This document shows positions 6,391 through 63,194 of a stretch of 64,000 nucleotides of DNA, one piece after another. The stretch lies in assembly GCA_951406725.2 (NCBI GenBank), contig OX597823.1, forward strand, positions 111,104,001 to 111,168,000, read 5' to 3'. Both the position numbers and the translations under genes were made by a program. The notes beneath the pieces were generated by a model, which searched no databases, had not been told where the DNA came from, and saw nothing but the letters and a program-made list of their open reading frames with translations. This DNA comes from Octopus vulgaris. Its lineage: Eukaryota. Position 1 is the first letter of the stretch. Each line of letters begins with the position of its first letter.

Positions 6391-6685
6391 GCATACATCT
6401 GAAATGTATTCGAAGGAATTTTCGTTAATATCCTTTTTTTTTTCAGAAAGTTATGAGGAAACAAATTCAGTGGTGCACATTTCTGTAGTTATGGCCTAAA
6501 TTTACTTAGCGAATGAGTATAATTAAACAAACAAAAAATTCAAAGGAAAATTAAACGCATCAGAAAAATGACATAAATTAAGAGTTAAATGCGCAATTAT
6601 AATATATAACTGGTAGTTAATAGTTTCTGTTAATTACCTATACGCCATGATAGAGAGCAGCGTGCAGGCAGAAACGTTAGCATGC

Positions 6686-8347
6686 TTCTGGCGTTTTTTT
6701 GTAGTGTTGACATCATCTGTTTTGTTTCAGTACTTTTTTTTAAAAAATGGTTAATTCTTTTTGTGATGCTTTGCAGCGATTTGTTTGTGCTTCCTCTCCT
6801 CTTTTTGAGGAGAGTTAGCTTTGGACAAAAAGAAGTGTATGTTCTATTCAGATCTAAGGGGTGTGGAATTGTCTTCAGAGGAAGAACTGCTTAGAGCAGT
6901 AGAAAAAATGGATAAAATAATTTAAATAGAGGAAAAAAAAGAAAAACTTCGCGGAAGTGACAAGACAAGAGGAAGAGGAGATTGATATCAAGAGAATTAG
7001 TAATTTTAAAAATTTGACTTGTAGAGAGGGATACAACGTGGAATTGGTCCCTCCAAAGGAAATGTTGGAATGCATTAGGAGAAAAACAATTACATACAAA
7101 AAATTTTCTACAAAGGCAGGAAGAATAGAGAATTCAAACACAAGCCAAATAGAAAAGTGCTAAGGCCCATGTGGCAGGATATAGTCTTTTTAAAGAGCGG
7201 TACAAGATTTGGTACAGTAGAGGTGAGGTTCGCAAAAGAACAAAACGCAAAGAAACAGGCAGCAAAGACAATACAGGACAAAGAAGTGGTGTTGTTCCCC
7301 ACTTGCATGGGTAGACGGGCAACTAGGATTAAAGTCGAAGGTATTCCACCTGAAATAGACGTGGCCTGGGTAGCGGCCGCAGTCCTTAAAGGAAGTGAGG
7401 ATGATATAGCAGTGCTCCAGGCCACGAGAACCAGATGCGAGATGTGGAAGGGGAAGACACTTGAGATGACAGTATAAGTTTCAACGGAAATAATCTTGTT
7501 TAATGAAACGGATATGAGGGCCAAGGAGGAGGGCAAAGTCCCAAGATGCTATAAATGTGTCTAAAGGGCCACATTAGAGTGGACTGCCCGAGAAAAGTGG
7601 AAGAACAGTCAAAGAAGGTAGAGGAACCTGCAGAGATAATAGAAAAAGAGGAAAAACTATCAGAAGAAGCATGGAAAGTGGTAAGCGGGAAGAAAAGGAA
7701 GAAGGCACATAATTTGAACTCTGAATCCCAACGCACCCCACACATACCCTCTCAGACCCACCCTTCTCCCACAGACACAGAGCCTACCCATTTCCCTCCG
7801 ACACGAAACCTAAAAAAAAGTGAGACATACACACAAGAAATTTCAAACTCCCTCCCCCAGACAAAAAAGAAATGTACAGTATTCATAAGAGACGATTTAA
7901 ATGAGGAGTTGTGTCAAGAATTGGTGAAATGGTACGATTTTAAGGAAATAGCAACCCATGGGTCTGAAAGTGTTGAGAGGTATCACCGTCGTGTGCTGCC
8001 AACGAAAGAACAATTGGAGAGAGTATTGAAACATAAAAGTGGTTACGGGTGGTGGGAGGTAGAGTTGGACAGAGAGGAACTACCAGAATTATCAACGTAT
8101 GAGGAAATACTAGAACTATATGGAATAGACCTTCTTGAAGGAACGGGGTGCAAAAGGTGATAAAGGGTAGAAATGGGATCGCCCAGACGTGGGGCTGACT
8201 GGCCCCATTCCATTTTTCATTTTCATGTCTATCATTCCTCTTTGTCATACGTTTTTTTCTTTGTTTTTCGTTTTGTGGCCCGACATGTGATATGTAGTCT
8301 CCTCTATGTTGCCCCCCTGGTGGGCAATAAATAAGAATTTAAGAACT
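6686..8347 (+). mobile_element. ORF1-only non-autonomous non-LTR retroposon (HAL1-like architecture)
   Basis: 10-bp TSD gttagcatgc at 6676-6685 and 8348-8357; gag-like ORF; no EN or RT; 3' end gcccccctggtgggcaataaataag. Confidence 0.8.
6957..8160 (+). pseudogene. L1/Tx1-type ORF1 (gag-like, CCHC zinc knuckle) broken by frameshifts and a stop
   Basis: ORFs 6957-7163, 7157-7477 and 7555-8160 tile one protein; PRCYKC/LKGHIRVDCP knuckle at about 7540-7590; WKVVSGKKRKK basic motif. Confidence 0.75.
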
Positions 8348-8759
8348 GTTAGCATGCCGGGCGAAGTGCTTAGCGGTATTTCGTCTGTCTTTACGTTCTG
8401 AGTTCAAATTCCGTCGAGGTCGATAAATTAAGTACCAGTTGCGTACTGTGGTCAAGCTAATCGATTGCCCCCACCCCATCCCCAAAATTCCGGGCCTTGT
8501 GCCTAGAGTAGAAAAGAATATACCATAATAACAATCGGTCTTGTTACATTACTTTCGCTATCTTCAAAACTAGCAGTTTCACTGTTTGGAATTTTCTTTT
8601 TATCTATTGTACCTATATACGTTCATTTATCCAAGTGCCAAGAACTCTTTCTTGATCTATGCTTGATTCAGGACTCTGTGAATGAGACGAACTGCAGAAA
8701 ATCCCGTCTGATAAACAGTGACCACACCTGCTAACTGACAAGAAAGTAGAAGAGTAGCA

Positions 8760-15955: not shown

Positions 15956-17137
15956 GCAAGTTGCAAGGAGAGGCTAAAAGAAATACCAATATTTTCTTTC
16001 ATTTTCCATTGCATCAATTTAGGGCTGAAATATAGTAAAAATAAGAAGGGATAAGGTAAAAAAAAATACAAGAAAAAATCACAATCACACAACAAAAACA
16101 AAATATCTATAGAAATCATATCAACTCTACCAACAAAATATTAGGCATAAACACATTGGCTATCACTAGAAAAACAAAGGCAAAGGTTACAAAAACGAAA
16201 ATGTTTCATTATTTTCATCATCATCATCATCATCATCACCATCACTACCACCACCATCACTACCATCACCACCGTCATCACCATTATCATCATCATCATC
16301 ACCATAATCATTGATATCATCAGAAAGACTATATATGGTAGCAGGGCAAAAAAATAAAAGTAACGTCAAGATTTTTACCTGTATGAAATTCATCATCTTG
16401 CTTAGCCTTGTCAACGTCATCCGTGACAGTAACATCGTCAGCAACATCAGCATCTTCGCAATCATCATCATCATCATCATAATTTTAAACATCCTCATCA
16501 GCATAATCATTATTGTCTTTATCTTATCTTCCCCGTCATTACATTCACCACACCCAACCTCTTAATCAACATCATCTTCACCGTTTTAATTCTCACACAC
16601 AATATTTCAGTAATAAAGATTTTCACATCCATGAGCATCTCCAACACTACAATCTCAATCATCAAAACTACCACACAAACTAGCACTTCTTTCCATTGTC
16701 AACACCACAGTGCCAACACCAGAACCACCACCCCAGTCACAGTTACTAATGCCAACACTGTCGTCAATATATCCTCCAACAACCTCACTAAAATTACCTC
16801 TACTACTATCATTTCTTCTATCTTCCCCGCAAAAATCACTTCCATCAACTCTGTTACAACCATGATGCTATGACAACCATAACTGCTACCATCACCAGCA
16901 TCAACACCAATACCAACAAAGCAGCAACATTAACATTACCTGCCACTGCCAACTTCGTCAGTACAACTGATGCAGTAATTCTAAATTCTCAAGAAACTAC
17001 AAATTCTACAAGCAGGACTAGAACAACCAATGAACTGGTTAATGAAATGTCATAACATGACAAATGATTGTAAAAAATATGAATTAAAAGCAGTTGAGAA
17101 CCTGGATATGTAATAACAAAAGCTGAGCAATGAAAGC

Positions 17138-17611
17138 ATGCATAAGATCTGGTCATCAAATCTAAGTAGAGACTTCAAACTTGAAATCCTCAAAGCCGCA
17201 GTCGAACCAATTCTACTATATGGCTCAGAAACCTGGACGTTATCAAAGAAGCTTGAGAGGCGGTTGGATGGAACCTACACTCGCCTCCTTATGAGAGTTC
17301 AAAATCTCTTGTGGAAGCGTCATCCAACCAAAGTACAAATATATGGGAAACTACCACCTGTATCATCTCTTATGAAAGGTAGGAGAGTCCAGTTTGCTGG
17401 ACATTGTTGTAGAGCTGAAAACGAGGCAATTTCTACTCTTCTCCTCTGGAAGCCATCTACTTGCAATACCAGAGGACGCACACTCTCCTACCCTGATGTA
17501 ATCTCCAGGGATACAGGCATCCAGCAACAGGACCTCCGTAATGCCATGAAGTCTGGCGCAGCATGGTAAATTCCATTGTCTCGACCACAGTCGAACAATG
17601 ATGAATGATGA
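17138..17611 (+). mobile_element. 5'-truncated RTE-like LINE 3' end
   Basis: ORF 17138-17569 EPILLYGSETWTL..RRLDG..RRVQFAGHC; ends in atgatgaatgatga. Confidence 0.9.
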
Positions 17612-29136: not shown

Positions 29137-30020
29137 GCCAAAATAATATATATAATTTACAGTTCGTTGTGTATTTTTGTAACTAAATGATAGGGGAATT
29201 TTCAGAGAAAGTTAAGAGATTTGAGACATTTTATTTACAAGTCCCTGGAGACATATCATCTTTGGACGCAATATAAGAAATTCCAAGGAGAGGAAGCTGA
29301 GCATTGAGACATCTTAGTAAAAATAGGCGGGCCTAAAATCTGTTCACGTATAGCAAAGTCAATCTCTCTCTATATAAAACTGAGAAAGTGTGTGTGTGTG
29401 TGTCTGTCTGTCCGTCTGTCTGTCTGTGTGTTTCCCTAAAACTTGAGAACTACTCAACCAATTTAATTCGAATTTTACACATGCCTTGCTTAGGGTCCGG
29501 GGAGTGTCACAGCGAAAAAAATTTTAAACTTTTTCCCTAGGGCGAACCCACAGCAATATCATATCTTCGCCACTACGATTCCCTAAAACTTGAGAACTAT
29601 ACAACCAATTTCGTTCAAATTTTACACATGCCTTACTTAGGGTCCATGTAGTTTCATGGGCGACAAAAATGTTCAACTTCTTGCCTAGAGCGAGTCCATA
29701 GCAATATCATATCTTCACCACTTTTTCAGTATTACGTGTTAAAAGTGAAACAAAAACATCTCTGTATTTTATGTCAGATACTTTCACTTTAACAATGAAA
29801 ATAATAATAACAATTGAATTATTTGTAGTAAGTAATAATTAAAATCAAACTAAAGTATAATATAATCGTAACATAACAAAAGTAAAAATAGCAATTGGTA
29901 TAAAATTGCATCAATGACTTGAACTTGAATAAGTGGTTTCACATGAATGGGAATAAATAAAAAATAAAATTTAAGTGCAGAAATGGAATAGTCCAGATGG
30001 AGCTGTGCTTTTACATTAGA

Positions 30021-31577
30021 CTAGCATTAAAGACCCGTCGTTGCCGGGTCATAGTGCTGGTGCATGTATATATGTGTACATATTACATGTACATCTATAT
30101 ACTCTTTTACTCTTTTTACTCTTTTACTTGTTTCAGTCATTTGACTGCGGCCATGCTGGAGCACCGCCTTTAGTCGAGCAAATCGACCCCGGGACTTATT
30201 CTTTGTAAGCCCAGTACTTATTCTATCGGTCTCCTTTTGCCGAACCGCTAAGTGACGGGTACGTAAACACACCAGCATCGGTTGTCAAGCAATGCTAGGG
30301 GGACAAACACAGACGCACAAATATATACACACACACTTATATATATACATATAGACGACAGGCTTCTTTCAGTTTCCGTCTACCAAATCCACTCACAAGG
30401 CATTGGTCGTCCCGGGGCTATAGCAGAAGACACTTGCCCAAGATGCCACGCAGTGGGACTGAACCCGGAACCATGTGGTTGGTTAGCAAGCTACTTACCA
30501 CACAGCCACTCCTGCGCCTATATATACATCTACACATAAAATACAAAATACAAAGTTATATCTTGATATCGCTAGTGATAACAATACTCAAAATATTAAC
30601 AGACTGGAATTGTTAGCCCGTCTCTTGTAATTTCGATCAATTGTATCTTGTCCTCCCTCTTGTATAGAAGTGGGGCTACAATCCAGCCTACCTCTACTTC
30701 TGGGGGGACATTTTTAATTTTTATCCTGGACGTCCTACGTCCCAGATATAAAGGTAAAAATAAAATAGTTCCACTTTGCAAGGTTCGAGTCGAGTACCCC
30801 CTTGCACGCTCCGTTGACTCGAACCTTGCTTCTATTGTGGCGAATTTACATAATCACACCAAGACACTTTTCGAAGGTGCTTTCCTCCATGTGTTTAAAT
30901 TTTTTTCTCTACATTGTATATTTTAAAGACAATAGACTTTTCTCTAATTTAATTTTTTATCATCCATCTGGACTATTCCATTTCTGCATGCTAATTTTAT
31001 TTTTAATTTATTCCCATTCATGTGAAACCACTTATTCAAGTTCAAGTCATTGATGCAATTTTATACCAATTGCTACTTTTACTTTTGTTATGTTACGATT
31101 ATATTATACTTTAGTTTGATTTTAATTATTACTTACTACATATAATTCAATTGTTATTATTATATTTATTGTTAAAGTGAAAGTATCTAACATAAAATAG
31201 AGAAACGTTTTTGTTTCACTTTTAACAAGTAATACTGAAATAGTGGAGAAGATATGATATTGCTATGGGCTCGCTCTAGGCAAGAAGTTGAAAATTTTTT
31301 TGCCCATGAAGCTACATGGATATAAGTAAGGCAGGTATAAATTTTGAATGAAATTCGTTGTGTAGTTATCACATCTTAGGGAATCGTAGTGGAGAAGATA
31401 TGATATTGCCGTGGGCTTGCCCTAGGCAAAAAGTTAAAAAAATATGTTGCCGATGACACTCCCGGACCCTAAGTAAGGCATGTGTAAAATTTGAATGAAA
31501 TTGATTGTGTAGTTCTCAAGTTTTAGGGAAACACAAAGACAGACAGACACACATTGTCAGTTTTAAATATATAAAGA
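30021..31577 (-). mobile_element. Same-family Helitron nested antisense in the outer copy; internally deleted and carrying a SINE B
   Basis: CTAG at 30021-30024 with adjacent hairpin; minus-strand TC start at 31577; inserted at a|t with no TSD. Confidence 0.9.
30100..30519 (-). mobile_element. SINE family B, full length, inside the nested Helitron
   Basis: Collinear with other family B copies; lies in the Helitron TA tract. Confidence 0.9.
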
Positions 31578-32719
31578 TTATCTGCTAATTAGCTAGCATT
31601 AAGTATCTATATGAAGTTTGGCTGTACGTAATATCTGTTTTATCGAACAGCCGGTTCTACAGAGTACTGCTGTTGGTTTATTTCTTATACATAAAGGACT
31701 AAAGCTTCAACTGCTTACTGCTTTCTGACTCATCGTAAGGTTTGTTGTTATTATTATTACTGTTTAATTATTGTTATCATGTTTGTTGGTTCCTCGTAAA
31801 GGAAACATTGTTGTGTTGCATTTGTTAAATAATTGTAAACTGTAACCCTCCCCTTTTGGGAGAAGGAGCTTTGGTTATTATTTAAAAATTGAATTGTGTT
31901 TGGGGAAAATGACAATATTTTCACCGTTTACACGGAAGCATTTTTGTTAGAATGCCTTCGATAGAAGAAAGTCAAAAAAGGAATATCGCTGCAGCCGTCG
32001 GTCGGCGCCAAATCATTGAAATTAAAATGGAAGAAATACGGATTGATCACCGACAAAGACAGTGAATCTAGGATAACACCACCAAACGAAATAAAAAATT
32101 AAATTAAAGAAAAGACTATTGTCTATAAAGTATACAATGTAGAAAAAAAATGATTTGAACACCTGGAGGAAAGCACCTTCGAAAAGTGTCTTGGTGCGAC
32201 TATGAAAGATATCTAACCAGAGGCGGTAAATTCGCCACAATAGAAGCAAGGTTCGAGTCAACGGAGCGTGCAAGGGGGTACTCGACTCGAACCTTGCAAA
32301 GTGGAAATATCTTATCTTTACCTTTATATCTGGGACGTAGGACGTCCTGGAAAAAAATTAAAAATGTCCCCCCAGAAGTAGAGGTAGACTGGATTGTAGC
32401 CCCACTTCTATAATAGAGGGAGGACAAGATACAATTGATAGAAATTGCAAGAGACGGGCTTACAATTCTGTTATATATTTTGAGTATTGTAATCACTAGC
32501 GATATCAAGATATAACTTTGTATTTTGCATTTTATGTGTAGATGTATATATATAGATGTACATGTAATATATGTACACATATATATATACACATATATAC
32601 ATGCACTAGCACTATGACCCGGCAACGACGGGTCATAATACTAGTTGTACATATATATATACATGTATGCATACATACATACGCGCGTACTTACGTATGT
32701 ATAATGGAACTACCCTATT

Positions 32720-42196: not shown

Positions 42197-42226
42197 TCTC
42201 TATATATATATAAAACTGAGAATGTG

Positions 42227-42261
<35 letters not shown>

Positions 42262-43751
42262 GTGTTTCCCTAAAACTTGAGATCTACACAACCAATTTCA
42301 TTCAAATTTTACACATGACTTACTTAGAAAAAATGTTCAACTTCTTGCCTAGGGCGAGCCCATAGCAATACCATATCTTCTCCACTATTTCAGTATCACG
42401 TGTTAAAAGGGAAACAAAAACATCTCTCTATTTTATGTCAGATACTTTCACTTTAACAATAAAAATCAGAGATAATAATAACAATTAAATTATATGTAGT
42501 AAGTAATAATTAAAATCAAACTAAAGTATGATATAATAATTAAATCGTAACATAACGATTAATAGTAAAAATAGCAATTGGTATAAAATTGCATCAATGA
42601 CTTGAACTTGAATAAAATTTAAGTGCAGAAATAGAATAGTCCAGATGGAGCTGTGCACGGCTTTTACATTAGATTATTTGCTAATTAGCTAGCATTAAGT
42701 ATCTATATGAAGTTTGGCTGTATGTAATGTCTGTTTTCTCGAATAGATGCTTCTACTGAGTATTGCTGTTGGTTTATTTCTGATCCATAAAGGCCTATAG
42801 CTTCAACAGAGTATTGCTTTTTGATTCACTGAAAGGTTTGTTGTTATTATTATTACTGTTTATTGTTATCACGTTTGTTGGTTCCTCGTAAGGGAAGCGA
42901 TGTTGTGTTGCATTTGTTAAATAATTGTAAACTGCAACCCTCCCCCTTTGGGAGAAAGAGCTTTGGTTATTGTTTAAAAATTGAATTGTGTCCCTGTTTG
43001 GGGAAATTGACAATATTTTCACCGTTTACACGGAAGCAATTTTGTTAAAATGTCTTCGATAGAAGAAAGTCCAAAAATGAATTTCGCTGCAGCCGTTGGC
43101 GGGCGGCGAACTCAGTAAAATTAAAATGGAAGAAATACAAACCTATTTCGGATTGATCACCGACTAAGACGGTGAATCTAGCATAACACCACCAAACGAA
43201 ATAAAAAATTAAATTAAAGAAAAGACTATTGTCTATAAAGTATACAATGTAGAGAAAAAAACGATTTGAACACCTGGAGGAAAGCACCATTGAAAAGTGT
43301 CTTGGTGCGACTATGAAAGGTATCAAGTATCTAACCAGAGGCGGTAAATTCGCCACAATAGAAGCAAGGTTCGAGTCAACGGAGCGTGCAAGGGGGTACT
43401 CGACTCGAACCTTGCAAAGTGGAAATATCTTATTTTTACTTTTATATCAGGGACGTAGGACGTCCCGGATAAAAATTTAAAATGTCCCCCCAGAAGTAGA
43501 GGTAGGCTGGATTGTAGCCACACTTCCATACAAGAGGGAGGACAAGATACAATTGATCGAAATTGCAAGAGACGGGCCTACAATTCCAGTCTGTTATATA
43601 TTTTGAGTATTGTTATCACTAGCGATATTAAGATATAACTTTGTATTTTGTATTTTATTTGTAGATGTATATATATAGACGTACATATAATATGTACACA
43701 TATATAAATGCACTAGCACTATGACCCGGCAACGCCGGGTCATAATGCTAA
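42197..43751 (+). mobile_element. Uninterrupted 1.55 kb non-autonomous Helitron with a captured LINE ORF1 fragment
   Basis: a|TC start, (CTGT)n, hairpin atgacccggcaacgccgggtcat, CTAA|t end (CTRR); GGKFATIEARF..GRR..IKI.NVPPEVE at about 43335-43560. Confidence 0.9.
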
Positions 43752-46499: not shown

Positions 46500-48239
46500 T
46501 CATTAAGCAATTTCTTTTTAGATGTTAATATCTGATATAATTAATTTTTCATAGGCTGTCTAGCATCATTTATTTTGTATGATCTAATGATCTAGCATGA
46601 CTGTTTTCCAGTTTATGTTGTATAGTTTCTTAATGTCCTTCAGTTTCCAAATTTGCTTACTTAGACTAATATTGTCAAACCTATCTCTACGCCTAAAGGT
46701 GTGCTCATGGTTTGCAGTCCGTTTTTTTATAAAATTTCCCGTTGACCCTATGTAAAAATGTTTTTTTCGTTTCGAATCCACCTTACTTCTATATACAATA
46801 TTGTTTCTGTAAACAAAGATTACTAAAATGACATTCATCCTTATATCTATAATCACAATTTCTAGCTAGACCATTCCCTGTAATAGTATTATTATTTCTA
46901 TTATTTCTAAATTTTTATTATCAAAGGAAAAGAAAATTCTAAAAACATGTTTAGATACTGAAAAACTTATTCAAATCCTTTCTCTATTAATTATTTTATA
47001 ATATTTATGTTCTTCCTTAAAGTGCTTAGATATGGATCTGTAAAAGTTTGACCAAATTCGTTTTTATTTGCCGTGCGTAAGGAATGATATGCCAAATATA
47101 ATTATCTTTATTATAATTAGCATCATTAAGTATATCTGGGTTCGCATATGGCGTATACTTATTATCATTAGACTGAAGTTTTATTTATATACCTATTTTT
47201 ATACAGAGTATATTTACTATACGTGCTCCTATTGAGATTATTACTATTGTTAATCATATCATTACTACTTACAAACAAATTGGATACATTTCTACAATTA
47301 GATCTACTCACTTTGTTGTCAATAAATTTTCCATTATTATAATAAGGTTTATTGGAGTTCCCATTCTTAATACAATATACTATTATATTCCAGTATCCTA
47401 CCTTTTTAAGTGCATCATTATAATATTCGGCATTATTATTAAAGATTTCATCATTAGAGGATAAATATGAAGCACGTTTCCAAATGTTATTAATCAAAGT
47501 TCTTGCGATCGCTTTAGGATGGTTATTATGAAAGTTGATATATTTTAAATTATAGTTGGATTTATGATATGGACTGTATAGGCCAGTAACAAGGTTCAGA
47601 TTAACATCCAGGTAATTAACTGAATCATGTTCATTTTCTATAGAGATAGATAAATAAACCAAATCATTTAAAGAACACTTTTTATAGGCTATTTTAAATA
47701 GCCTTTTTTTATATCAATAACTTTAATAAATAGAAGAGTTATCATATATTAAAAATATAACTAATATTTATATTTTTTACACGTTTTATTACAGTTTCTA
47801 GATTATACTTAATTATATAATATTTTGGATTAATATTATTTGAAATATATAGAAATATATTTCGACAGTTGTAGATTCTACTTAATTATTTTGTCCGTTA
47901 AAATTTTGTTGTTTTTAATTGGAATTGATATTTAGTCGAATGGCTAACGCTCACGCGCATAATAGATAGGTATTTAGATTAATCTTTTTACAATCTAGCC
48001 ATCCTTTCACACGGAATTTCGTCAATCTTCAAACCAATGGCTCTGATGAGACTTTTATAAGGTAATTGACTTGTTTATATATCAAAAGATGTATATAAGT
48101 TGAAACAAATTACTGGCTTTTTGTTTTTTTAAATAATTGTTCATGTTATATTATACTATATTCGTAGTATATTATGTTAAATTATAATATAAATAAATTA
48201 TTGAGTTGTCATTTGTATCTATCTGCTTAATTTATTGTT

Positions 48240-49611: not shown

Positions 49612-49845
49612 GAAGGCAGCGAGCTGGCAGAATCATTAGCATGCCGGGCAAAATGCGTAGTCGTATATCGTCTGCCGTTACGTTCTGAGTTCAAATTCCG
49701 CCGTGGTCGACTTTGCTTTTCATCCTTTCGGGGTCGATAAATTAAGTACCAGTTACGCGCTGGTGTCGATGTAATCGACTTAATCCGTTTGTCTGTCCTT
49801 GTTTGTCCCCTCTATGTTTAGCCCCTTGTGGGTAATAAAGAAACA
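49612..49845 (+). mobile_element. SINE family A, full length, with 15-bp TSD
   Basis: ggtatgtgtgtcatt at 49597-49611 and 49846-49860. Confidence 0.92.
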
Positions 49846-50657
49846 GGTATGTGTGTCATTATTTGCTGGGATGATAAAAGAGTGTATATGAGGAGGTGAT
49901 AAGTGGTGTATGCTGGAATAAGGGTATTGTTAAGAACCTGGTTTAGCAAGAATAATGTGGAAGCCGTTGTCAATGCATGTGCAAGCATTTATCAAAAGTG
50001 AGTAGGGATGTGAAGGATTAAATTAAAATTTGAAAATGAGAGAAAGCTGTATGAATTCTACAGAAAAACAAAGTCAAAGAAATTGGAAAAAATGTCAATA
50101 ATGGCAAAGCTCCAAAGAGTTTGGTAAACTGTCCAGAGTATTCCAAAAATCTGGTAAAATCCATAAAGAGAAAGAAATATTTGTGATTGAAAATCTAGTA
50201 AAATCTACATAATGGAAATAACTGTGATGAATTCTAAATATAATAATATACTAAGGCCAAATGCATCGCGTGGTTAGCTGAAGGGAGAGGCAACGAATGA
50301 TAGAAAAAGACAGTGGGAGAAAAGTGTTAATGATGTGTTGTAGTTTGGGGAGGAAAAGGTGAAGAGAAAGAAAGAAATGTTAAAGACATGAAGAGAGGAA
50401 TTACATGGTTAAAAAGTGCTTAGCAGGGGGAAATTTTAAAATCATATAATATATTATTTTGACTGGAAGTGAAATAACTTAGGAAAATAGAAATAAAAAC
50501 CATCCTTTCTTTCTTAAATAGCTTCTCTTAATCTTTATAGTTTGGTTGAATTCCCACAGGTCCCACTAATACATACATACATACATATATATATATATAT
50601 GTATAGATGGATATATATGTATAGATGGATATATATATATATATATAAACACACACG

Positions 50658-57960: not shown

Positions 57961-58141
57961 GATATCATAAATGGAGGAGTTGATAAGTGTATACACATTG
58001 AGTTTAAAACTTGCTATTTCTGCCCTTGCTTCCTCATATTCATGATCACCTCAAGCATCTGACGAGGAAACAGTCAGCAGATACAGATCTAATGAAACCG
58101 AGGACCATATAAACTTTTAAATGAGACATCTTCTCAAAAAG

Positions 58142-60407
58142 ATCTCTCTCTCTCTTCTCTGTCACACTCTCCCTCTCTTCTCTGTCTCACTCATTCTCTC
58201 ATCTCTGTCTCACTCACTCTCTCTCTTCTGTCTCACTCTTTCTCTCTTCTCTGTCTCACTCATTCTCCCTTCTCTGTCTCACTCTCTCTCGCTTCTCTGC
58301 CTCACTCTCTCTCTTCTCTGTCTCACTCTCTCTCACTTCTCTATCTCACTCTCTCTCTTCTCTGTCTCACAGTCTCCCTTCTCTGTCTCACTCTCTCTCT
58401 TCTCTGTCTCACTCTCTCTCTCTTCTGTCTCACTCTCTCTCTCTTCTCTGTCTCACTCATTCTCTCTTCTCTGTCTCACTCTCTCTCGCTTCTCTGTCTC
58501 ACTCTCTCTCTTCTCTGTCTCACTCTCTCTCTCTTCTCTGTCTCACTCTCTCTCTTCTCTGTCTCACTCTCTCTCTCTTCTCTGTCTCACTCTCTCTCTT
58601 CTCTGTCTCACTCTTTCTCTCTTCTCTGTCTCACTCACTCTCTCTCTTCTGTCTCACTCTTTCTCTCTTCTCTGTCTCACTCATTCTCTCTTCTCTGTCT
58701 CACTCTCTCTCTTCTCTGTCTCACTCTCTCTCTTCTCTGTCTCACTCTCTCACTTCTCTGTCTCACTCTCTCTCTTCTCTGTCTCACTCTCTCTCTCTCT
58801 CATCTGTCTCACTCTCTCTCTTCTGTCTCACTTTCTCTTTCTTCTCTATCTCACTCATTCTCTCTTCTTTGTCTCACTCTCTCTTCTCTGTCTCACTCTC
58901 TCACTTCTCTGTCTCACTCTCTCACTTCTCTGTCTCACTCTCTCTCTCATTTGTCTCACTCTCTCTCTCTTCTCTGTCTCACTCTCTCTTCTCTGTCTCA
59001 CTCTCTCTCTCTTCTCTATCTCACTCTCTCTCTCTCTCTTCTTTGTCTCACTCTCTCTTCTCTGTCTCACTCTCTCTCTTTTCTCTCTCACTCTCTCTCT
59101 CTCTTCTCTGTCTCACTCTCTCTCTCTCTCTTCTCTGTCTCACTCTCTCTCTTTTCTGTCTCACTCTCTCTCTCTTCTCTGTCTCACTCTCTCTTCTCTG
59201 TCTCACTCTCTCTCTCTCTCTGTCTTACTCTCTCTCTCTTATCTGTCTCACTCTCTCTCTTTTCTGTCTCATTCTCTCTCTCTTCTCTGTCTCAATCTCT
59301 CTTCTCTGTCTCACTCTCTCTCTTCTCTGTCTTACTCTCTCTCTCTTCTTTGTCTCACTATCTCTCTTTTCTGTCTCATTCTCTCTTTCTTCTCTGTCTC
59401 ACTCTCTCTTCTCTGTCTTACTCTCTCTCTCTTATCTGTCTCACTCTCTCTCTTTTCTGTCTCACACTCTCTCTCTTCTCTGTCTCAATCTCTCTTCTCT
59501 GCCTCAATCTCTCTTCTCTGTCTCACTCTCTCTCTTCTCTGTCTCACTCTCTCTTCTCTGTCTCACTCTCTCTCTTCTCTCTCACTCTCTCTCTCTCTCT
59601 TCTCTGTCTCACTCTCTCTCTTCTGTCTCATTCTCTCTCTCTTCTCTGTCTCACTCTCTCTCTTTTCTGTCTCATTCTCTCTCTCTTCTCTGTCTCACTC
59701 TCTCTCTTCTCTGTCTTACTCTCTCTCTCTTCTCTGTCTCACTCTCTCTCTTCTCTGTCTCACTCTCTCCCTCTCTTCTCTGTCTCACACTCTCTCTCTC
59801 TTCTCTATCTCACTCTCTCCCTCTCTTCTCTGTCTCACTCTCTCTCTCTTCTCTGTCTCACTCTCTCCCTCTCTTCTCTGTCTCACTCTCTCTCTCTTCT
59901 CTGTCTCACTCTCTCTCTCTCTTCTCTGTCTCACTCTCTCTCTCTCTCTTCTCTGTCTCCCTCTCTCCCTCTCTTCTCTGTCTCACTCTCTCTCTCTTCT
60001 TTGTCTCACTCTCTCCCTCTCTTCTCTGTCTCACTCTCTCACTCTCTTCTCTGTCTCACTCTCTGTCTCTCTCTCTTCTCTGTCTCACACTCTCTCTTTT
60101 CTGTCTCACTCACTCTCTCTCTTCTCTGTCTTACTCTCTCTCTCTTCTCTTTCTCACTCTCTCTCTCTCTTCTCTGTCTCACTCTCTCTCTTCTGTCTCA
60201 CTCTCTCTCTCTCTTCTCTGTCTCACTCTCTCTCTTCTGTCTCATTCTCTCTCTTCTCTGTCTCACTCTCTCACTTCTCTGTCTCACTCTCTCTCTCATT
60301 TGTCTCACTCACTCTCTCTCTTCTGTCTCACTCTCTCTCTTCTGTCTCACTCTCTCTCTCTTCTCTGTCTCACTCTCTTTCTCTCTTCTCTGTCTCATTC
60401 TCTCTCT
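58142..60407. repeat. 2.27 kb CT-rich tandem satellite, unit about (ct)n-tctctgtctca, roughly 19-27 bp
   Basis: Read directly; explains the S/L/F/C/H-rich ORFs in all three plus frames. Confidence 0.97.
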
Positions 60408-60723
60408 GTATGTTTTTGACTCAGTATCACAGATGAGGTATCCATTAATACCATCTTCTATAAAAACATCTATTCATAAAGACCTTAGGCCTTGTGCATT
60501 ATGGGTCGTCCCAATTAACTAGGGCCAAAGTTGCTCATATACAGGAAAAAATTTCCTGTGTGCACAACAAATACAGTGAAGTAAGGTATAGAATCATTAG
60601 CTACAAGCATCTCAGAAATACATCTTAGCTAGACTCTGGTCTGAATATAAGCACCAAAGAAGACTGGTGCATCTGTGATAATACTTGTTTTTTAAAAACA
60701 ATTCCACTTTGATGATAGAAACG

Positions 60724-61732: not shown

Positions 61733-62317
61733 CAGAAACGTTAGCGCGCCAGGTGAAATGCTTAGCGGTATTTCGTCTGTCGTTATGTTCTGAGTTCAAA
61801 TTCCGCCGAGGTCAACTTTGTCTTTCATCCCTTCGGGGTCGATGAATTAAGTACCAGTTTCGCACTAGGGTCGATGTAATCGACTTAATCCCTTTATCTG
61901 TCCTTGTTTGTCCCCTCTGTGGTTAGCCCCTTTGTGGGTAGTAAAGAAATAGGCATTTCGTCTGTCATTACGTTCTGAGTTCAAATTCCGCCGAGGTCAA
62001 CTTTGTCTTTCATCCCTTCAGGGTCGATAAATTAAGTACCAGTTTCGCACTAGGGTCGATGTAATCGACTTAATCCCTTTATCTGTCCTTGTTTGTCCCC
62101 TCTGTGGTTAGCCCCTTGAGGGTAGTAAAGAAATAGGTATTTCGTCTGTCGTTATGTTCTGAGTTCAAATTCCGCCGAGGTCAACTTTGTCTTTCATCCC
62201 TTCGGGGTCGATAAATAAAGTACCAGTTTCGCACTGGGGTCGATGTAATCGACTTAATCCCTTTGTCTGTCCTTGCTTGTCCCCTCTATGTTTAGCCCAT
62301 TCTGGGTAGTAAAGAAA
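61733..62317 (+). mobile_element. Head-to-tail trimer of SINE family A
   Basis: One head then three bodies of about 184 bp; junctions aaatag|gcatttcg (about 61952) and aaatag|gtatttcg (about 62136). Confidence 0.92.
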
Positions 62318-63194
62318 TATATATATTTATGTATTTCAGCCACATTTATGCTACTGTTATTCTTCTTTCTGGATTCATTTCCTTTTAGTATCTTTTGCTC
62401 ATTCTCAATATCTTCCCCCCACCACTTTATTTTCTCTTTGTGAGTCAATGATTTGTTGTGTGGACGCCCCCAGATGATGAAGTAGACTAGCCCAATATGT
62501 AGATATAGAGGGAGAAGTCTAGACGTTGAGGAGAGTAGCAGTCGGAGTAGAAGAGTAGAGTTGAGTAGTAGAGGCATCCGAACGTGCGACGTAGCATGTC
62601 TATTTTCCCCTTTCCAATGAACTCCATTATATGACTACCACAACTCATTTTTAATACCTCAAATCTACCCTCAACAACCATCTCCACCTTCATCTGCCAC
62701 TCACTATTTCCAACCTTATGTATCCCTGACCTCCATCTCTGTTTCTACATGTCTTCCTCTTCGCCCACACTCTCTCATCCCATGCATCATTTTCCTATTT
62801 CTTATTTATCTTCACTTTTATTATGCTATTGCTTTCCACCTATCTGTACTGTCAGTTACCATTTCCTTCTTTCTGAAATACTCTTAATTCTTTTAATTTC
62901 TCCCCAACAACTAATATTTACCAATAGCCACATCTACTGCCTTGTCCTCTTATCATTACACTAAGCTCTACCCCCCATCTCTAATCATCTGTCACTCTCC
63001 TCTCACATTATTACGAAATCACCATTCACCCCTACCCCACTCCCTGATGCTCTCTCCGTATTTTCTCCTATACTCACCTTCAAGTACCTCAAGAATATGC
63101 CCTGACATGCAATCACCATCATTTTTATCACCCTTTGCAGCCACTCCCAACCATCCTTATGTAATGATTTCAAGATTTTGCCACAAGGGCAGCT

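What the first reader, a model, noticed from the sequence alone, without database searches (positions are those of the whole stretch)
6686..8347. ORF1-only retroposon that inserted as a complete unit and shares its 3' tail with SINE family A
Seen: a 1662-bp insert bounded by a 10-bp TSD (gttagcatgc) splits a SINE A head. It carries about 270 bp of leader, one gag-like ORF with a CCHC knuckle and about 190 bp of 3' UTR, with no endonuclease or RT. Its end (cctctatgttgcccccctggtgggcaataaataag, 8301-8335) resembles the SINE A type-1 tail (cctctatgtttagccccttgtgggtaataaagaaa, about 49809-49843). Established: HAL1-type ORF1-only elements exist, and SINEs borrow LINE 3' tails for mobilisation in trans. 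Inference: a three-member system of an autonomous Tx1/L1-like LINE, an ORF1-only parasite and a SINE, all using one 3' stem-loop. I know of no description of this in cephalopods but cannot search to confirm.
Basis: partly seen in the sequence, partly recalled or inferred. Interest (0 to 1): 0.8.

Follow-up and report, generated by a model that had tools for sequence, protein, structure and literature searches.

The report
Dead octopus ORF1-only retroposon inside SINE
A broken 1.66-kb jumping gene with only an RNA-binding-protein gene and no copying enzyme sits inside a short repeat (SINE) in an octopus-like genome and shares its last 38 bases with a sister SINE; it likely belongs to an undescribed family that borrowed a LINE's enzyme, a strategy already known from mammals and insects.

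Summary
Confirmed: a 1,662-bp insert between exact 10-bp duplications splits a tRNA-type SINE head, has no endonuclease/RT or LTRs, and its end matches the type-1 SINE tail (31/38; 0 of 5,000 shuffles reach it). Corrections: the ORF is not intact (four frameshifts, one stop; the CCHC knuckle itself is split), the leader is 150-220 nt, the host SINE carries the other tail type, and the tail hairpin is no better than shuffles. The protein belongs to a large family whose named members are octopod; a relative folds as two RRMs plus a knuckle (Type I LINE ORF1). Public contigs show relatives at 82-89% identity; one runs from ORF end into the tail without ORF2 in 4 of 4 runs, so this is likely a family, not a one-off deletion. 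The insertion is shared by three species labels, hence old. The autonomous LINE and site-specific targeting were not seen here; earlier scan notes (at least 8, same genome, unchecked) report both. Verdict: new member of the HAL1/HeT-A kind; not found in seven paper searches; Repbase/Dfam not searchable.

The parts
6657..6675 (+). 5' part of the host SINE head (A-box-like region; box label recalled)
   Evidence: aligns to SINE heads at 49616 and 60723
6676..6685 (+). left copy of the 10-bp target-site duplication
6686..6907 (+). T-rich leader (41% T); the ORF may start as early as 6839
6908..7546 (+). ORF1 remnant, two predicted RRM-like domains; frameshifts near 6917, 6940, 7152-7163; TAA at 7475
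   Evidence: fold of relative P0010
7547..7588 (+). CCHC zinc knuckle split by a frameshift near 7559
   Evidence: intact zf-CCHC in 6 of 65 aligned relatives
7589..8160 (+). charged/Pro-Thr linker and about 100-residue C-terminal region of unknown fold, ending in TGA at 8158-8160
   Evidence: P0017 matches to 7911; no match for the C-terminal region
8161..8296 (+). 3' UTR; contains a GC hairpin at 8188-8207 and a 10-mer at 8278-8287 that is antisense (9/10) to 8353-8362
   Evidence: 10-mer not significant on its own
8297..8334 (+). 3' tail shared with type-1 SINE copies
   Evidence: SINE-body loose ends begin at 8295-8297 in public contigs
8335..8347 (+). short A/T-rich end, no poly(A)
8348..8357 (+). 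right copy of the target-site duplication
8358..8522 (+). rest of the host SINE, with a 27-nt internal deletion and the type-2 tail
49615..49846 (+). type-1 SINE copy used for the tail comparison

Best explanation
The insert is a decayed copy of a retroposon that carries only a LINE-type ORF1 gene between a 10-bp target duplication and shares its 3' tail with a SINE; it likely belongs to an ORF1-only family that was copied in trans by the endonuclease/reverse transcriptase of a Tx1/L1-like LINE recognising that tail. Shown: structure, duplication, tail match, absence of ORF2, broken frame, a relative with the same ORF-to-tail junction, presence of the same insertion in three species labels. 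Predicted: two RRMs plus a knuckle (from a relative's model). Inferred: the parent RNA made its own ORF1 protein, which packaged it; a partner's ORF2 protein bound the tail, nicked the SINE head, primed reverse transcription at the left edge of the duplication and cut the second strand 10 nt on; the type-1 SINE uses the same partner; the copy then decayed neutrally.
For: TSD and reconstituted SINE head. 205 protein clusters at E<=0.001 for the 133-residue RRM piece; all 14 named among 20 looked up are Octopus or Argonauta gene models, 6 are unnamed. Model of relative P0010: pLDDT 78.7, tandem-RRM proteins fill the Foldseek list, VIA Z 9.7, rmsd 2.4, 81 aligned to the La RRM; second domain Z about 8. 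RRM+CCHC is Type I ORF1, said to be consistent with the Tx1 clade in non-mammalian animals (PMC5203782, passages). A relative spans 8014/8017-8317 at about 82% in 4 of 4 runs; in X5 a contig of the same depth also joins 7473 to 8014 within 1,001 nt. Five contigs other than the orthologue cover the ORF end (8131, 8150) and three cover 8282. ORF1-only LINE derivatives are an established class (PMC5786205, PMC5753468, passages).
Against: No autonomous partner was seen. Continuity from ORF to tail is shown for one relative only; coverage falls by more than half between 8154-8210 and 8211-8267, so some relatives may go on into ORF2 or simply diverge (94 loose ends were not displayed). No intact copy and no dN/dS test, so selection on ORF1 in the ORF1-only lineage is unshown. 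Clade assignment without RT is indirect. Tail hairpin not better than shuffles.
Confidence: 0.72

Rival explanations
1. Sporadic internal deletions of an autonomous LINE (during or after insertion): short copies are dead ends, not a self-propagating family.
For: Only one relative is shown to have the junction; several relatives stop aligning near 8210.
Against: The relative is 18% diverged yet collinear over the whole 3' UTR with 5-6 gap letters; independent deletions would not share the same 187-nt UTR, which has no ORF2 remnant.
Confidence: 0.13
2. The tail came from the SINE, not from a LINE: an ORF1 transcript picked up a type-1 SINE end (template switch or read-through) and was then mobilised by whatever LINE moves that SINE, so ORF1 donor and enzyme donor differ.
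For: The shared stretch is only 38 nt and the SINE is very abundant; no LINE with this tail was seen.
Against: Similarity stops sharply at 8295-8297 with no SINE body upstream, as expected when both took only a LINE's terminal signal; earlier notes report a LINE with this tail (unchecked).
Confidence: 0.1
3. A gag remnant of an LTR element or a fragment moved by a DNA transposon.
For: A CCHC knuckle is gag-like; three other ORF1 fragments in the window ride in a Helitron-like repeat.
Against: No LTRs or inverted ends, a 10-bp duplication, RRM rather than capsid fold in the relative, no Helitron end at 8347.
Confidence: 0.03

Closest known systems
HAL1 (half-L1) of mammals (PMC5753468 and PMC5786205, passages; primary paper not read)
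   Same: Non-autonomous, encodes only ORF1, retroposed with target duplication
   Different: Mammalian L1 ORF1 is Type II (PMC5203782); this one is Type I (two RRMs + CCHC), in an octopod, ends in a SINE-shared tail without poly(A)
HeT-A and other ORF1-only telomeric Jockey-clade elements of Drosophila (PMC5786205, PMC13534243, passages)
   Same: ORF1-only, depends on ORF2 of another family; ORF1-only lineages can give rise to new ones
   Different: Telomere-restricted, Jockey clade; long UTR and no TSD (recalled)
Ag-Sponge of Anopheles (PMC5786205, passage)
   Same: ORF1-present bipartite non-autonomous LINE
   Different: CR1 clade
Tx1-Mar LINEs with SINEU of crocodilians; Tx1L in Tx1D of Xenopus (PMC4494074, passages)
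   Same: Tx1-type machinery and passengers found inside another abundant transposon
   Different: Targets are DNA transposons, passengers are non-coding; targeting is shown there for hundreds of copies, here for one site
Octopus tRNA-derived SINEs, OR2 CORE-SINE (PMC4758252, passage citing Ohshima and Okada 1994)
   Same: Likely the family of the host SINE (recalled resemblance; no sequence comparison possible)
   Different: No ORF1-only partner is mentioned in the passages seen

Membership tests
ORF1-present non-autonomous LINE (HAL1/HeT-A/Ag-Sponge kind) | Encodes an ORF1-type protein and no EN/RT | tested here: met
   remnant is broken in this copy
ORF1-present non-autonomous LINE (HAL1/HeT-A/Ag-Sponge kind) | Inserted as a retroposed unit (TSD, no LTR/TIR) | tested here: met
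ORF1-present non-autonomous LINE (HAL1/HeT-A/Ag-Sponge kind) | Multiple copies share the ORF1-to-3'-end junction | tested here: met
   minimally: this copy plus one 82% relative in 4 of 4 runs; other relatives inconclusive
ORF1-present non-autonomous LINE (HAL1/HeT-A/Ag-Sponge kind) | 5' and 3' parts derive from an autonomous LINE in the same genome | not testable with these tools
   no genome held; none in the window
HAL1 proper | Mammalian L1-derived, Type II (Transposase_22) ORF1 | tested here: not met
   0 of 65 relatives match Transposase_22 at E 0.01, 6 match zf-CCHC; model has two RRM-like domains; named relatives are octopod
Tx1 clade | Type I ORF1 (RRM + CCHC) | tested here: met
   definition from PMC5203782; not exclusive to Tx1
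Tx1 clade | Placement by RT phylogeny | not testable with these tools
   the element has no RT and no partner was retrieved
Tx1 clade (target-specific members) | One repeat type in more than 20% of flanks (criterion of PMC4494074) | tested here: inconclusive
   one site only; of 136 contigs laid in X5 only the 2 orthologous ones reached the ends; SINE-like DNA is 3.1% of the window
LTR retroelement (gag remnant) | Long terminal repeats and 4-6 bp TSD (recalled) | tested here: not met
   no terminal repeats; 10-bp duplication
SINE-LINE pair with common tail | Shared 3' terminal sequence | tested here: met
   between insert and type-1 SINE; the LINE side is unseen
SINE-LINE pair with common tail | Conserved 3' stem-loop | tested here: inconclusive
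   hairpin drawable in all four tails folded, none beats shuffles

The most novel reading that the evidence does not exclude
This copy is one footprint of a three-tier octopod system in which a Tx1-like LINE, its ORF1-only passengers and a SINE share one tail, and the LINE machinery homes into the tRNA-derived head of that same SINE family; a 10-nt stretch just upstream of the shared tail (8278-8287), absent from the SINE, pairs with the target strand across the second-strand cut and so helps set the landing base, an RNA-guided step in target-primed reverse transcription.
Probability: 0.2. Interest if true: 0.8.

Novelty: new member of a known kind. Interest (0 to 1): 0.42.

Why it matters
ORF1-only retroposons are known from mammals, flies and mosquitoes; an octopod family with a Type I ORF1 and a SINE-shared tail extends the class to molluscs and names the likely enzyme donor of a very abundant octopus SINE. 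It also explains many 'uncharacterised' or 'CCHC-type' octopus gene models as transposon remnants. If SINE-head targeting and the antisense 10-mer hold genome-wide, the system would offer a natural test of whether element RNA helps choose the integration site. This single copy is old and dead and does not prove that part.

Tried and rejected
No whole genome is held, so no genome-wide BLAST, copy count or dN/dS. Word-index protein searches of longer proteins with two ORF pieces and with alignment A1 found nothing (weak evidence; one search covered only 1,092-3,115 residues), so no ORF1-ORF2 fusion model was found. Pfam on 95 low-repeat frames of the window: one chance hit, no RT/EN (RTE-like fragments visible by eye also scored nothing, so sensitivity is low). 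Rfam on 6600-8600: 0 matches; ARAGORN: 0 tRNA in the window. C-terminal 101 residues: no significant match to 9 relatives' C-termini, to the 150 hits or in the ESM Atlas. A leader motif that looked shared with the Helitron-borne fragments is not better than shuffles (1,432 and 329 of 2,000). Antisense 10-mer: 455 of 2,000 shuffles of the 3' UTR score as well, duplex energy reached by 203 of 1,000, and relatives differ at 8278 and 8282. A 53-codon frame in the 3' UTR (8173-8331) has no Pfam match. Tail-plus-target pattern in metagenome contigs: 0. No RNA holder listed. Earlier-note look-ups by sequence, near and relatives returned nothing, so I could not confirm that the earlier notes concern the same subfamily or the same base. 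Joints 6682/6683 to 8355/8378 are best read as ordinary intact SINE copies, not empty alleles of this locus.

Full report
Observation. The insert 6686-8347 (1,662 bp) lies between two exact copies of a 10-mer that occurs only there on the + strand. Taking it out restores a continuous tRNA-type SINE head that aligns with the other copies in the window. The host SINE has a 27-nt deletion and the type-2 tail; the tail that the insert resembles belongs to sister copies (49805-49842 and others). That match is real: 31 of 38 bases, E 3e-5 in the window, unmatched by 5,000 shuffles, and in public contigs the SINE body falls away exactly at 8295-8297 (loose ends). The hairpin in the tail can be drawn but is no more stable than shuffles in 4 of 4 tails. 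There are no terminal repeats and no space for ORF2.

The coding region is a ruin, not an open frame: breaks near 6917, 6940, 7152-7163 and 7559, and a stop at 7475. The knuckle is split by the last break. Contigs of a second study cross the 7152-7163 and 7559 breaks with no gaps (X2 records 11 and 12), so the damage is genomic. The likely start (6839 or 6908) makes the leader 153-222 nt; the 3' UTR is 187 nt.

The protein. Pfam saw nothing in the pieces and word-index searches failed, but a full HMMER scan with the 133-residue middle piece found 205 clusters at E<=0.001, 36 at 1e-10. Of 20 looked up, 14 have names, all Octopus (three species) or Argonauta; 6 are unnamed. The 150 listed hits are at most 623 residues; 13 of 150 hold a CCHC pattern and 6 of 65 aligned match zf-CCHC. 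A model of P0010 on the 65-sequence alignment (pLDDT 78.7) matches tandem-RRM proteins (68 Foldseek hits at E<=0.001, best 3.5e-5, low TM-scores) and the La RRM (Z 9.7, rmsd 2.4, 81 aligned); the second domain matches ferredoxin-like folds at Z about 8. The ESM Atlas lists zf-CCHC clusters at 0.92 and a ZCCHC3-type two-RBD cluster at 0.90 (a lead). RRM plus CCHC is Type I LINE ORF1, described as consistent with the Tx1 clade in non-mammalian animals (PMC5203782, passages). The model is of a relative, not of this copy.

Family or accident. No genome is held, so I laid public contigs. In four runs (two of organism A, one each of B and C) the same insertion is bridged at the 5' junction in X2, X5 and X7 and at the 3' junction in X2 and X5; the organism-B copy differs at 41 of about 1,590 bases. 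The insertion is therefore older than the split of these labels. Relatives at 82-89% identity cover all parts of the ORF (records 2-5 and 7). One of them aligns from 8014/8017 through the stop and the whole UTR to 8317 in 4 of 4 runs (53-54 substitutions, 5-6 gap letters), and in X5 a contig of the same depth joins 7473 to 8014, within 1,001 nt. That is a second ORF1-only copy with the same junction. Against: five non-orthologous contigs cover the ORF end and six carry a variant at 8188, but only two to three reach 8259-8282, and 94 loose ends were not shown, so ORF2-bearing relatives are not excluded. Of 136 contigs laid on 6672-8357 only the two orthologous ones reached the ends, so the flanks of relatives are unknown.

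Mechanism. Most likely (0.72) an ORF1-only passenger: its RNA would have supplied ORF1 protein in cis and recruited a partner's ORF2 protein through the tail, which nicked the SINE head and left a 10-bp duplication; the type-1 SINE would use the same partner. The partner was not seen: no RT/EN in 95 frames of the window, no long fusion proteins. Rivals are sporadic deletions (0.13), a SINE-donated tail (0.10) and a non-LINE origin (0.03).

Targeting. The scan has met this kind of element before: at least eight notes on other pieces of the same genome and some in other genomes describe ORF1-only elements and a Tx1-like LINE that stack at one base of a SINE head. They are unchecked AI notes, and sequence look-ups did not link them to this copy. 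Here there is one site, in a window that is 3.1% SINE. Following notes e1-8667107 and e1-8825192 I looked for a tail segment complementary to the landing site: 8278-8287 is antisense at 9 of 10 bases to 8353-8362, five bases either side of the right edge of the duplication, and the SINE tails lack it; but 455 of 2,000 shuffles do as well and relatives differ at two of the ten positions. It stays a lead. Separately, the type-1 SINE tail is joined to one internal SINE base 27 nt further on, twice in the window and in hundreds of contigs per run; repeated insertion and an amplified dimer both fit.

Known systems and novelty. ORF1-only LINE derivatives are established: HeT-A, HAL1, Ag-Sponge (PMC5786205; PMC5753468; PMC13534243; passages only). 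Tx1 families that target other transposons and carry passengers are established (PMC4494074, passages). Seven full-text searches listed no description of an octopod ORF1-only family. Term searches in three octopus TE papers found no ORF1-only element: PMC13282606 (0 for ORF1, non-autonomous, nested; its one supplement 0 for ORF1 and HAL1, 80 L1-Tx1 families listed without sequence), PMC9115989 (ORF1 only for human L1), PMC12988792. PMC4758252 (passage) names OR2 as an octopus CORE-SINE; that the host SINE is OR1/OR2 is my recollection, untested. Repbase, Dfam, subscription papers and deposited repeat libraries could not be searched and may hold the family under a neutral name.

Verdict. Observation partly confirmed, interpretation partly supported. 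New member of a known kind, interest 0.42. The bolder reading (SINE-homing three-tier system with RNA-assisted site choice) is not excluded, probability 0.2, interest 0.8 if true.

Noticed in passing
window 31575-32645 (+), 42671-43750 (+), and a broken copy 30020-30101 / 30519-30960 (-): Three copies (88-89% alike) of a 1.08-kb Helitron-like repeat (3' hairpin then CTAG; label recalled) carry the leader and first 150 or so codons of a distant relative of the same ORF1 family (32-36% protein identity to the insert), cut off in the second RRM. These are passengers of a DNA transposon, not separate retroinsertions.
   Followed up: partly
window 61733-62320: SINE array: one head, then three units of about 185 nt, the second and third restarting at the same internal base directly after a type-1 tail. 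In public contigs the loose ends before the matching base (8375) have the type-1 tail as consensus in 634-1,300 records per run, 4 of 4 runs (agreement 0.52-0.61). This preferred junction lies 27 nt downstream of the start of the insert's duplication.
   Followed up: partly
window 8188-8207: GC-rich hairpin 28 nt after the ORF1 stop; more relatives align here (6 contigs with a variant at 8188) than further downstream.
   Followed up: no
window 29414-30001 and 30963-31548: A 590-bp inverted pair (91%) flanks the broken Helitron-like copy; a further copy at 42199-42676 abuts another Helitron-like copy.
   Followed up: no
window 17117-17569, 47168-47713 (-), 58096-60522: An RTE-like LINE C-terminal fragment, a possible Penelope-like fragment (both labels by eye, no Pfam hit) and a 2.4-kb CT-rich minisatellite of about 21-23 nt period.
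   Followed up: no
P0001, P0010, P0024, P0038, P0106, P0124: Octopus gene models with names such as 'EPM2A-interacting 1-like', 'CCHC-type domain-containing' or 'nek3' contain this transposon ORF1 and are probably mis-annotated remnants.
   Followed up: no
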